A stretch of DNA of 64,000 bases from Escherichia phage vB_EcoM_VR20, in the sequence record NC_028894.1. One strand, written 5' to 3'. Below, piece by piece: positions 23,601 to 24,175 of this stretch (the stretch's first letter is position 1; every line of letters begins with the position of its first letter). Under the pieces are notes generated by a model. The model was not told the DNA's origin and did not search any database. It saw only the letters and a list, made by a program, of their open reading frames with translations. The translations under genes were made by a program, and so were the position numbers.

Positions 23601-23939
23601 AAAACGAATTAGCTTATTTAATGACTGTGAGACTTCATTACGAACAGCGTGTAAATTCTTAATCTGTTCAAGACGTTGCTCATAATACTCGATTTCATCT
23701 TCTTCCAGACAATCGTCTTTATCTTCTTTAAGATATCGAGCATAGTCCTGGAAAGCTTGACGAATCACTTCTTGAAAGTCATCTAACCCCTGGATTTTCT
23801 TGGGTTTTGATGTGAATCCAAACGGATTGGAATCGCTTATGCGGCGATGAGAAGCTGTTGATAACTCATAGCCAAAACCAGAATTAATCTGTGACATTAG
23901 TATTTTTCCTCGGGTTGGAAAACCGAACGACACGCCCAC
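23592..23939 (-). CDS. Hypothetical protein (vs.3-position)
   Basis: 115 aa ORF. Confidence 0.4.
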
Positions 23940-24175
23940 ATGCTTGCTTCTTTCAGACGGTCAATTGCATTACGAATCTGGGTGATGCGTTCATGAGCCT
24001 GGTCCAGTTCTTGTTCAGAAACTTCTTCGGTGTCTAAACCCATATAATGGTTGACATGCTCTTCTTCCAGAGCTTTAAACATTAACCCAAGACGAACTTC
24101 TGCATCTTTAATCGCGTTCACTTTACCGATTTTATCGTCGGTATGCGGTTTATAACCCTTGATGTCTTCAATCAT
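23897..24175 (-). CDS. Hypothetical small helical protein (vs.4-position)
   Basis: 92 aa acidic helical ORF, second gene upstream of regB; assignment by position and size only. Confidence 0.35.

What the first reader, a model, noticed from the sequence alone, without database searches (positions are those of the whole stretch)
23897..24175. Small helical ORF at the vs.4 position upstream of regB
This 92 aa acidic helical protein is the second ORF upstream of regB, where T4 encodes Vs.4, reported to act as a cyclic-oligonucleotide sponge (Acb2). Identity is inferred from position and size only.
Basis: inference. Interest (0 to 1): 0.4.

Follow-up and report, generated by a model that had tools for sequence, protein, structure and literature searches.

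The report
Phage Vs.4/Acb2 cyclic-dinucleotide sponge gene

Summary
The ORF is real: 23897..24175 on the minus strand, 92 aa, pI 5.0. Its start overlaps the vs.5 stop (ATGA) and its stop overlaps the vs.3 start (TAATG).

It is a full-length homologue of T4 Vs.4 (PDB 7UQ2, E 2.4e-28, 64% identity). It passes Pfam PF24729 Acb2_Tad1_hairpin (57.8 bits, cut-off 27) and PHROG 717. It sits in the T4 gene order tk.4-vs-vs.1-regB-vs.3-vs.4-vs.5-vs.7-vs.8.

An AlphaFold2 model (pLDDT 87.5) is a two-helix hairpin. Its only significant PDB matches are T4 Vs.4, followed weakly by PaMx33 Acb2.

All 12 T4 residues shown experimentally to contact cGAMP or hold the hexamer together are identical here. The residues and helix kink that PaMx33 Acb2 uses for cyclic trinucleotides are absent, as in T4.

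The most likely function is a hexameric cyclic-dinucleotide sponge against CBASS. An identical protein is already public (phage VR20), and more than 1,200 phage genomes carry homologues.

One side observation: residues 37-72 form a hypervariable, recombining cassette. I found about 19 types among 50 homologues, and close relatives such as VR7 carry a different one. The window also encodes Acb1.

Novelty: already known. Interest: low.

The parts
23897..24175 (-). vs.4 / acb2 coding sequence (92 aa plus TAA stop)
   Evidence: ORF. T4 Vs.4 7UQ2 at E 2.4e-28. Pfam PF24729 at 57.8 bits. PHROG 717. 100% identical to VR20_114 (P0001).
24180..24186 (-). Shine-Dalgarno-like GAGGAAG; its GAGG core lies 7 nt upstream of the ATG, inside the 3' end of vs.5
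   Evidence: Upstream sequence GGCGAGGAAGTGAAATG read. The ATGA overlap with the vs.5 stop suggests translational coupling (inference).
24068..24175 (-). Codons 1-36: conserved N-terminal segment carrying Y8, H11, T12, K23 (cGAMP contacts and helix cap) and L29, F33 (oligomer interface)
   Evidence: 32 of 36 residues identical to T4. Mean pairwise identity 0.77 among 50 homologues. Residue roles from PMC10097602.
23960..24067 (-). Codons 37-72: hypervariable central cassette (end of helix 1, hairpin tip, start of helix 2). It includes the positions equivalent to PaMx33 R67 and T74, which are T65 and D72 here.
   Evidence: 9 of 36 residues identical to T4. Mean pairwise identity 0.26 and centre length 24-41 aa, giving about 19 types among 50 homologues. 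38% DNA identity to VR7 against about 93% in the flanks. Residue mapping.
23900..23959 (-). Codons 73-92: near-invariant C-terminal segment carrying A77, A81 (hexamer interface), S78, R83 and F86 (cGAMP contacts)
   Evidence: 18 of 20 residues identical to T4. Columns L74-R83, V85, F86, P88, E90 and Y92 are invariant in 50 homologues.

Best explanation
The ORF is the orthologue of T4 vs.4 (acb2) in a Gaprivervirus-like T-even phage. It is probably translated from the long early leftward transcript, coupled to vs.5 upstream and vs.3 downstream. The 10.8 kDa protein folds into a two-helix hairpin. By homology, six copies interlock into a hexamer with three pockets. Each pocket forms between the N- and C-terminal segments of two protomers and binds one cyclic dinucleotide (3',3'-cGAMP and related CDNs) at nanomolar affinity. 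Sequestering the CBASS second messenger keeps effectors such as CapV inactive, so the phage can replicate. Because it lacks the Arg/Thr pair and the helix kink of PaMx33 Acb2, it most likely does not bind cyclic trinucleotides, like T4 Vs.4. Shown here: homology, predicted fold, conserved functional residues, synteny. Inferred: hexamer assembly, ligand binding, anti-CBASS activity.
For: - **Homology:** full-length match to crystallised T4 Vs.4 at E 2.4e-28 and 64% identity. Pfam PF24729 scores 57.8 bits against a cut-off of 27. PHROG 717 scores E 4e-29. A family profile hits PaMx33 Acb2 at E 1e-4.
- **Fold:** AF2 model with pLDDT 87.5 and helices 13-46 and 54-85. The top Foldseek PDB hits are 7UQ2 chains D, A and B (E 3e-7 to 2.5e-6, TM 0.74-0.79), then Acb2 8H2X and 8H2J.
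- **Functional residues:** all 12 T4 residues with experimental roles are identical here (Y8, H11, T12, K23, L29, F33, A66, A73, S74, A77, R79, F82, with the C-terminal ones offset by +4). This is shown, with roles taken from PMC10097602 and PMC12657218. Most of them are invariant across 50 homologues.
- **Synteny:** gene order matches annotated vs.4 in VR7, SP18 and RB32.
- **Selection:** against alleles of the same cassette type, dN is 0 in both end segments and dN/dS is about 0.1 in the centre.
- **No trinucleotide pocket:** the positions of PaMx33 R67 and T74 are T65 and D72. There is no Pro or Gly in residues 54-85, so no kink is expected. T4 and CHI14 Acb2, each retaining only one of the two residues, do not bind cA3 (PMC10312549).
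Against: There is no biochemical or genetic data for this allele. 27 of the 36 central residues differ from T4, and the hairpin is 4 residues longer. L60, a T4 screen hit, is I64 here. K67 of T4, which is Lys in nearly all other cassette types, is I71 here. Oligomer geometry or affinity could therefore differ. The AF2 model is a monomer, and its termini (residues 1-10 and 86-92), which form the ligand pocket, have low confidence. Some Acb2 family members bind other ligands, such as 3'cADPR (PMC12393519), so family membership alone does not fix specificity.
Confidence: 0.88

Rival explanations
1. It is a Vs.4/Acb2 family sponge whose distinct central cassette creates or alters a second pocket on the three-fold axis. 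It would then sequester an extra signal (a cyclic trinucleotide or another nucleotide) that T4 Vs.4 does not bind.
For: The cassette covers exactly the residues that line the three-fold pocket in PaMx33 and T4 Acb2 (PMC10312549). T4 Y37, L60, D61, T64 and T68 become E37, I64, T65, R68 and D72, which adds an Arg. The cassette is hypervariable and is exchanged between close relatives. Within its type it is still under purifying selection, with dN/dS about 0.1.
Against: Neither R67 nor T74 of PaMx33 is retained. Helix 2 has no Pro or Gly and is predicted to be straight. T4 D61R did not gain cA3 binding. Variability could simply reflect weak constraint on a solvent-exposed hairpin tip.
Confidence: 0.08
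2. It is a Thoeris-directed sponge (3'cADPR binder like Acb2_43) rather than a CBASS sponge.
For: Ten Acb2 homologues inhibit type I Thoeris, and Acb2_43 does not inhibit CBASS (PMC12393519).
Against: Acb2_43 uses extra N- and C-terminal beta-strands and different contact residues. This protein has the T4 termini almost unchanged, with Y8, H11, K23, R83 and F86, and no strands in the model.
Confidence: 0.02
3. It is a conserved small helical protein with a role unrelated to immune signalling, or an inactive remnant.
For: None specific. Most database records annotate it only as 'hypothetical protein'.
Against: The reading frame is intact and shows strong purifying selection. All experimentally defined functional residues are conserved, and the T4 orthologue has demonstrated sponge activity.
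Confidence: 0.02

Closest known systems
T4 Vs.4 (Acb2), PDB 7UQ2 (Jenson et al. 2023, PMC10097602)
   Same: Same genomic slot (second gene upstream of regB). 64% identity over the full length. Same predicted two-helix hairpin. Cyclic-dinucleotide contact residues (Y8, H11, K23, R79, F82, S74) and hexamer-interface residues (L29, F33, A66, A73, A77) are all identical. Both lack the PaMx33 cyclic-trinucleotide motif.
   Different: 92 aa against 88 aa. The central 36 residues are only 25% identical and form a 4-residue longer hairpin. T4 Y37, D61, T64 and T68 become E37, T65, R68 and D72. No experimental data exist for this allele.
VR20_114 of Escherichia phage vB_EcoM_VR20 and the 92-93 aa alleles of Gaprivervirus, Karamvirus and Jiaodavirus phages
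   Same: VR20_114 is 100% identical (P0001). SP18, TH41 and TH44 are 96-98% identical. Karamvirus and Jiaodavirus alleles are 82-86% identical and carry the same cassette type.
   Different: None for VR20. The others differ at a few central residues; the window has N42 and G46 where SP18, TH41 and TH44 have T and N.
Pseudomonas phage PaMx33 Acb2 (p26), PDB 8H2X/8H2J/8IXZ (Huiting 2023; Cao et al., PMC10312549)
   Same: Same Pfam family. The family profile matches at E 1e-4, and the fold matches weakly (Foldseek E 0.08-0.17, TM about 0.55). The Tyr and Lys of the cyclic-dinucleotide pocket (Y11, K26) are conserved as Y8 and K23.
   Different: About 20% identity. PaMx33 also binds two cyclic trinucleotides per hexamer through R67 and T74 and a kink at E64-P65-G66. 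This protein has T65 and D72 and no kink residues.
Acb1 (T4 gp57B), anti-CBASS phosphodiesterase
   Same: Same biological target (CBASS cyclic nucleotides). It is also encoded in this window, at 41173..41628(-), Pfam Acb1 at 200 bits.
   Different: It is an unrelated fold and an enzyme that degrades the signal instead of sequestering it.

Membership tests
Vs.4/Acb2 sponge family (Pfam PF24729, PHROG 717) | Significant full-length sequence similarity to a characterised member | tested here: met
   7UQ2 Vs.4 at E 2.4e-28 over residues 1-92. Pfam scores 57.8 bits against a cut-off of 27. PHROG 717 scores E 4e-29. The family profile reaches PaMx33 Acb2 at E 1e-4.
Vs.4/Acb2 sponge family (Pfam PF24729, PHROG 717) | Protomer made of two long antiparallel helices (hairpin) | tested here: met
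   AF2 model with helices 13-46 and 54-85, pLDDT 87.5. Top Foldseek hits are 7UQ2 chains at TM 0.74-0.79, then 8H2X and 8H2J. This is a prediction, not an experiment.
Vs.4/Acb2 sponge family (Pfam PF24729, PHROG 717) | Cyclic-dinucleotide pocket residues (T4 Y8, H11, K23, R79, F82; PaMx33 Y11, K26) | tested here: met
   All are identical in the window protein: Y8, H11, K23, R83, F86. Y8, H11, K23, R83 and F86 are invariant across 50 homologues.
Vs.4/Acb2 sponge family (Pfam PF24729, PHROG 717) | Hexamerisation-interface residues (T4 L29, F33, A66, A73, A77) | tested here: met
   Present as L29, F33, A70, A77 and A81.
Vs.4/Acb2 sponge family (Pfam PF24729, PHROG 717) | Assembly into an interlocked hexamer that binds three cyclic dinucleotides | not testable with these tools
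   Only monomer prediction was available. This needs AUC, SEC-MALS, crystallography or a multimer model.
Vs.4/Acb2 sponge family (Pfam PF24729, PHROG 717) | Nanomolar binding of 3',3'-cGAMP and inhibition of a CBASS effector or defence | not testable with these tools
   Requires ITC, a CapV assay and phage plaque assays.
T4 vs.4 orthologue (positional) | Location between vs.3 and vs.5, two genes upstream of regB, on the same strand | tested here: met
   Window gene order matches annotated VR7, SP18 and RB32.
Cyclic-trinucleotide-binding Acb2 subclass (PaMx33/JBD67 type) | An Arg at the R67 position, a Thr at the T74 position, and a kinked helix 2 that opens the three-fold pocket | tested here: not met
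   The equivalent positions are T65 and D72. There is no Pro or Gly in residues 54-85, and helix 2 is predicted to be continuous. The criteria come from PMC10312549.
Thoeris-inhibiting Acb2 subclass (Acb2_43 type) | Extra N- and C-terminal beta-strands that form a 3'cADPR pocket | tested here: not met
   No strands appear in the model, and the termini are nearly identical to T4 Vs.4. Caveat: the model's termini have low pLDDT. The criterion comes from PMC12393519.

The most novel reading that the evidence does not exclude
The central 36-residue cassette of T-even Vs.4 may be an exchangeable specificity module rather than a neutral hairpin tip. It has about 19 types, is swapped by recombination between phages that are about 93% identical, and is under purifying selection within a type. 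The window's 92-aa allele (E37, I64, T65, R68, I71, D72) would then give the hexamer a second ligand pocket, or let it escape a host factor that recognises or guards against Vs.4. That could change which signalling defences (CBASS subtypes, Panoptes) the phage evades or triggers.
Probability: 0.08. Interest if true: 0.5.

Novelty: already known. Interest (0 to 1): 0.13.

Why it matters
This result lets the gene be annotated with confidence as acb2/vs.4 rather than 'hypothetical protein', which is how most related genomes still label it. Together with the Acb1 gene in the same window, it shows the phage carries the full T4-type anti-CBASS pair. That predicts resistance to cGAMP-based CBASS and sensitivity to Panoptes-type guard systems, which is useful for host-range and phage-therapy predictions. 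There is no new biology in the gene itself. The only open question is whether the recombining central cassette has functional meaning.

Tried and rejected
- **NCBIfam and PADLOC:** neither library has a model matching Vs.4 or Acb1. This reflects the content of those libraries and is not evidence against the assignment.
- **Single-sequence phmmer:** it did not reach PaMx33 Acb2. A 50-sequence profile was needed.
- **Promoter and terminator scan, 22000-27500:** 16 promoter-like and 5 terminator-like sites against 14.2 and 3.9 expected from shuffles, so nothing assignable. Expression from an upstream early promoter remains an inference.
- **Rfam over the whole window:** only two tRNAs, far from the ORF.
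- **Repeat search around the gene:** only short two-copy matches that look like chance.
- **Plus-strand ORFs overlapping the gene** (23891..24037 at 48 aa, 24051..24155 at 34 aa): judged chance ORFs, since every neighbouring gene is on the minus strand.
- **Supplementary tables of Hadary et al.:** I tried to see whether a 92-aa-type allele had been assayed, but no supplement text is held.
- **Fast in-place evolution of the central region:** considered and rejected for the VR7 comparison. Synonymous divergence in the centre (dS about 2.1) far exceeds that of the N-terminal part (0.5), which points to allele replacement by recombination.

Full report
**Observation.** The window holds an ATG-to-TAA ORF at 23897..24175 on the minus strand, encoding 92 aa.
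- The protein is [92 protein letters not shown].
- It has 20 Asp/Glu against 13 Lys/Arg, a pI of 5.0 and a mass of 10.8 kDa.
- Its ATG overlaps the TGA of the upstream ORF (ATGA), and its TAA overlaps the ATG of the downstream ORF (TAATG).
- A GAGG motif lies 7 nt upstream of the start.
- All neighbouring genes are on the same strand.

**Context.** Pfam and PHROGs identify the neighbours.

| Window coordinates (minus strand) | Gene | Evidence |
|---|---|---|
| 22164..22523 | vs, valyl-tRNA synthetase modifier | phrog_1256 |
| 22524..23066 | vs.1 | phrog_600, weak SLT match |
| 23077..23535 | regB | REGB_T4, 241 bits |
| 23592..23897 | vs.3 | phrog_2037 |
| 23897..24175 | the ORF under study | see below |
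| 24172..24390 | vs.5 | phrog_1986 |
| 24383..24682 | vs.7 | phrog_2049 |
| 24679..25206 | vs.8 | phrog_1488 |

- Further along come internal-head-protein-like ORFs and then denV at 26363..26779.
- The same order is annotated gene by gene in phage VR7 (tk.4, vs, vs.1, regB, vs.3, vs.4, vs.5, vs.7, vs.8, ip7, ip10, denV), in SP18 and in the T4-type phage RB32.
- The region is 88-96% identical at DNA level to Gaprivervirus phages. The best match is TH41 at 95.6%. The source is therefore a T-even phage of or near that genus.

**Identity.**
- phmmer against all PDB sequences gives one significant hit: Vs.4 of T4 (7UQ2), E 2.4e-28, aligned end to end.
- tblastn gives 64% identity to T4.
- Pfam PF24729 'Acb2/Tad1 hairpin domain' scores 57.8 bits against a gathering score of 27.
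- PHROG 717, the family Jenson et al. used to collect Vs.4 homologues (PMC10097602), scores E 4e-29.
- A profile of 50 homologues also finds PaMx33 Acb2 (8IXZ, 8H2J) at E 1e-4.
- The big protein database holds a 100% identical protein, VR20_114 of Escherichia phage vB_EcoM_VR20. UniRef already names it 'Acb2/Tad1 hairpin domain-containing protein'.
- 1,230 phage records carry a homologue, mostly phages of Escherichia, Klebsiella, Shigella and Enterobacter.

**Structure.**
- An AlphaFold2 model built on the 50-sequence alignment has mean pLDDT 87.5. It contains two helices (13-46 and 54-85) joined by a short tip, with low-confidence termini.
- Foldseek against the PDB returns three significant hits, all chains of 7UQ2 (E 3e-7 to 2.5e-6, TM 0.74-0.79). 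Next come Acb2 8H2X and 8H2J (E 0.08-0.17), and after that only generic helical hairpins.
- At 64% identity the fold is expected, so this check is confirmatory rather than independent.

**Mechanism by homology.** Jenson et al. showed the following for T4 Vs.4:
- It is a hexamer that binds three cGAMP molecules with a Kd of about 30 nM.
- Y8 and F82 stack on the bases. Y8, H11, K23 and R79 make hydrogen bonds and salt bridges.
- L29, A66, A73 and A77 are required for hexamerisation, and F33 contributes to it.
- T12I, S74N and A77I abolish function.
- Sturbelle-type Panoptes work found that F82C and Y8A abolish nucleotide binding (PMC12657218).

All twelve of these positions are identical in the window protein, with the C-terminal ones offset by +4. 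Nearly all are invariant in 50 homologues. I therefore infer a hexameric cyclic-dinucleotide sponge that protects the phage from cGAMP-type CBASS. The same activity would make the phage a trigger for Panoptes guard systems.

**Cyclic trinucleotides.**
- Cao et al. showed that PaMx33 Acb2 binds cA3 through R67 and T74 and a kink at E64. T4 (D61, T68) and CHI14 Acb2 do not bind cA3, and T4 D61R does not gain binding.
- The profile alignment reproduces their mapping of T4 D61 to R67 and T68 to T74. It places T65 and D72 at these positions in the window protein.
- Helix 2 has no Pro or Gly and is predicted to be continuous.
- The most likely ligand range is therefore cyclic dinucleotides only, as for T4.

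**Central cassette (side observation).**
- Across 50 homologues, residues 1-36 and 73-92 are highly conserved, with mean pairwise identity 0.77 and 0.91. Residues 37-72 average 0.26 and vary from 24 to 41 aa in length.
- Average-linkage clustering at 40% identity gives about 19 cassette types. The window belongs to a type shared with some Gaprivervirus, Karamvirus, Jiaodavirus and Dhakavirus phages.
- VR7, VR25 and VR26 are about 93% identical to the window in the flanking genes but carry an unalignable 87-aa-type centre. DNA identity to VR7 is 38% in codons 37-72, against 91% in codons 1-36, 85% in codons 73-92 and 93-94% in neighbouring genes.
- Synonymous divergence from VR7 is about 2.1 in the centre against 0.5 in the N-terminal part. 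This indicates allele replacement by recombination, not rapid change in place.
- Within the window's own type, the centre evolves with dN/dS of about 0.1 (3-4 non-synonymous against 6-7 synonymous differences), and the ends have dN of 0. The numbers are small.
- Comparable mosaic islands affect vs.7 in SP18 and vs.8 in TH44. This is typical of the plastic early regions of T-even genomes.
- Whether the cassette matters functionally is unknown. It does cover the residues that line the three-fold pocket.

**Comparison with known systems, and verdict.**
- The gene meets every membership criterion of the Vs.4/Acb2 family that sequence and structure prediction can test.
- It fails the criteria for the trinucleotide-binding and Thoeris-binding subclasses.
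- Assembly and ligand binding cannot be tested here.
- An identical protein is public, the family is curated in Pfam, and the T4 orthologue has a crystal structure, biochemistry and genetics behind it. The finding is therefore already known and of low interest. Its practical value is better annotation.
- The window also encodes Acb1 (41173..41628, minus strand), so this phage has both T4 anti-CBASS proteins.

Noticed in passing
window 41173..41628 (-): A 151-aa homologue of T4 gp57B. It matches Pfam PF23474 Acb1 (anti-CBASS phosphodiesterase) at 200 bits and is 99% identical to VR7 57B. The phage therefore carries both Acb1 and Acb2, as T4 does.
   Followed up: partly
window 23960..24067 (-), codons 37-72 of vs.4; L001 (VR7) 2398..2661: The centre of vs.4 is a hypervariable cassette that has been exchanged by recombination. 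DNA identity to VR7 is 38% against about 93% in the flanks. There are about 19 types among 50 homologues, and dN/dS within a type is about 0.1.
   Followed up: yes
window 24500..24680 and 24680..25200 (-): Further mosaic islands among close relatives. SP18 diverges in vs.7 (53-65% identity) and TH44 in vs.8 (27-70%), while the surrounding DNA is 95-100% identical.
   Followed up: partly
window 25367..25666, 25723..25986, 26000..26314, 26839..27120 (all -): Four small ORFs begin with MKTYQEFITE or MKTYNEFLT, which resembles the capsid-targeting sequence of T-even internal head proteins. VR7 annotates ip7 and ip10 in this position. None has a Pfam match. Three lie between vs.8 and denV rather than beyond denV as in T4.
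   Followed up: partly
window 21703..22167 (-): The tk.4 homologue is a 154-aa Macro-domain protein (PF01661, 33 bits). RB32 annotates its counterpart as 'phosphatase'. A possible ADP-ribose-related role was not examined.
   Followed up: no
window 24172..24682 (-): There is no vs.6 gene between vs.5 and vs.7, unlike T4-type RB32 and Jiaodavirus 311F, which have a 120-aa vs.6 there. VR7 and SP18 share this layout.
   Followed up: no
window 37914..37987 and 37990..38063 (-): Two adjacent tRNA genes (Rfam RF00005, 73.7 and 62.2 bits). VR7 has only one annotated tRNA-Met in the corresponding region.
   Followed up: no
window 24679..25206 (-): Vs.8 (175 aa) gives weak P-loop/AAA and terminase-N-like Pfam matches (E 0.02-0.06) and a PHROG terminase large subunit match (E 6e-4). 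This hints that it could be a small NTPase.
   Followed up: no
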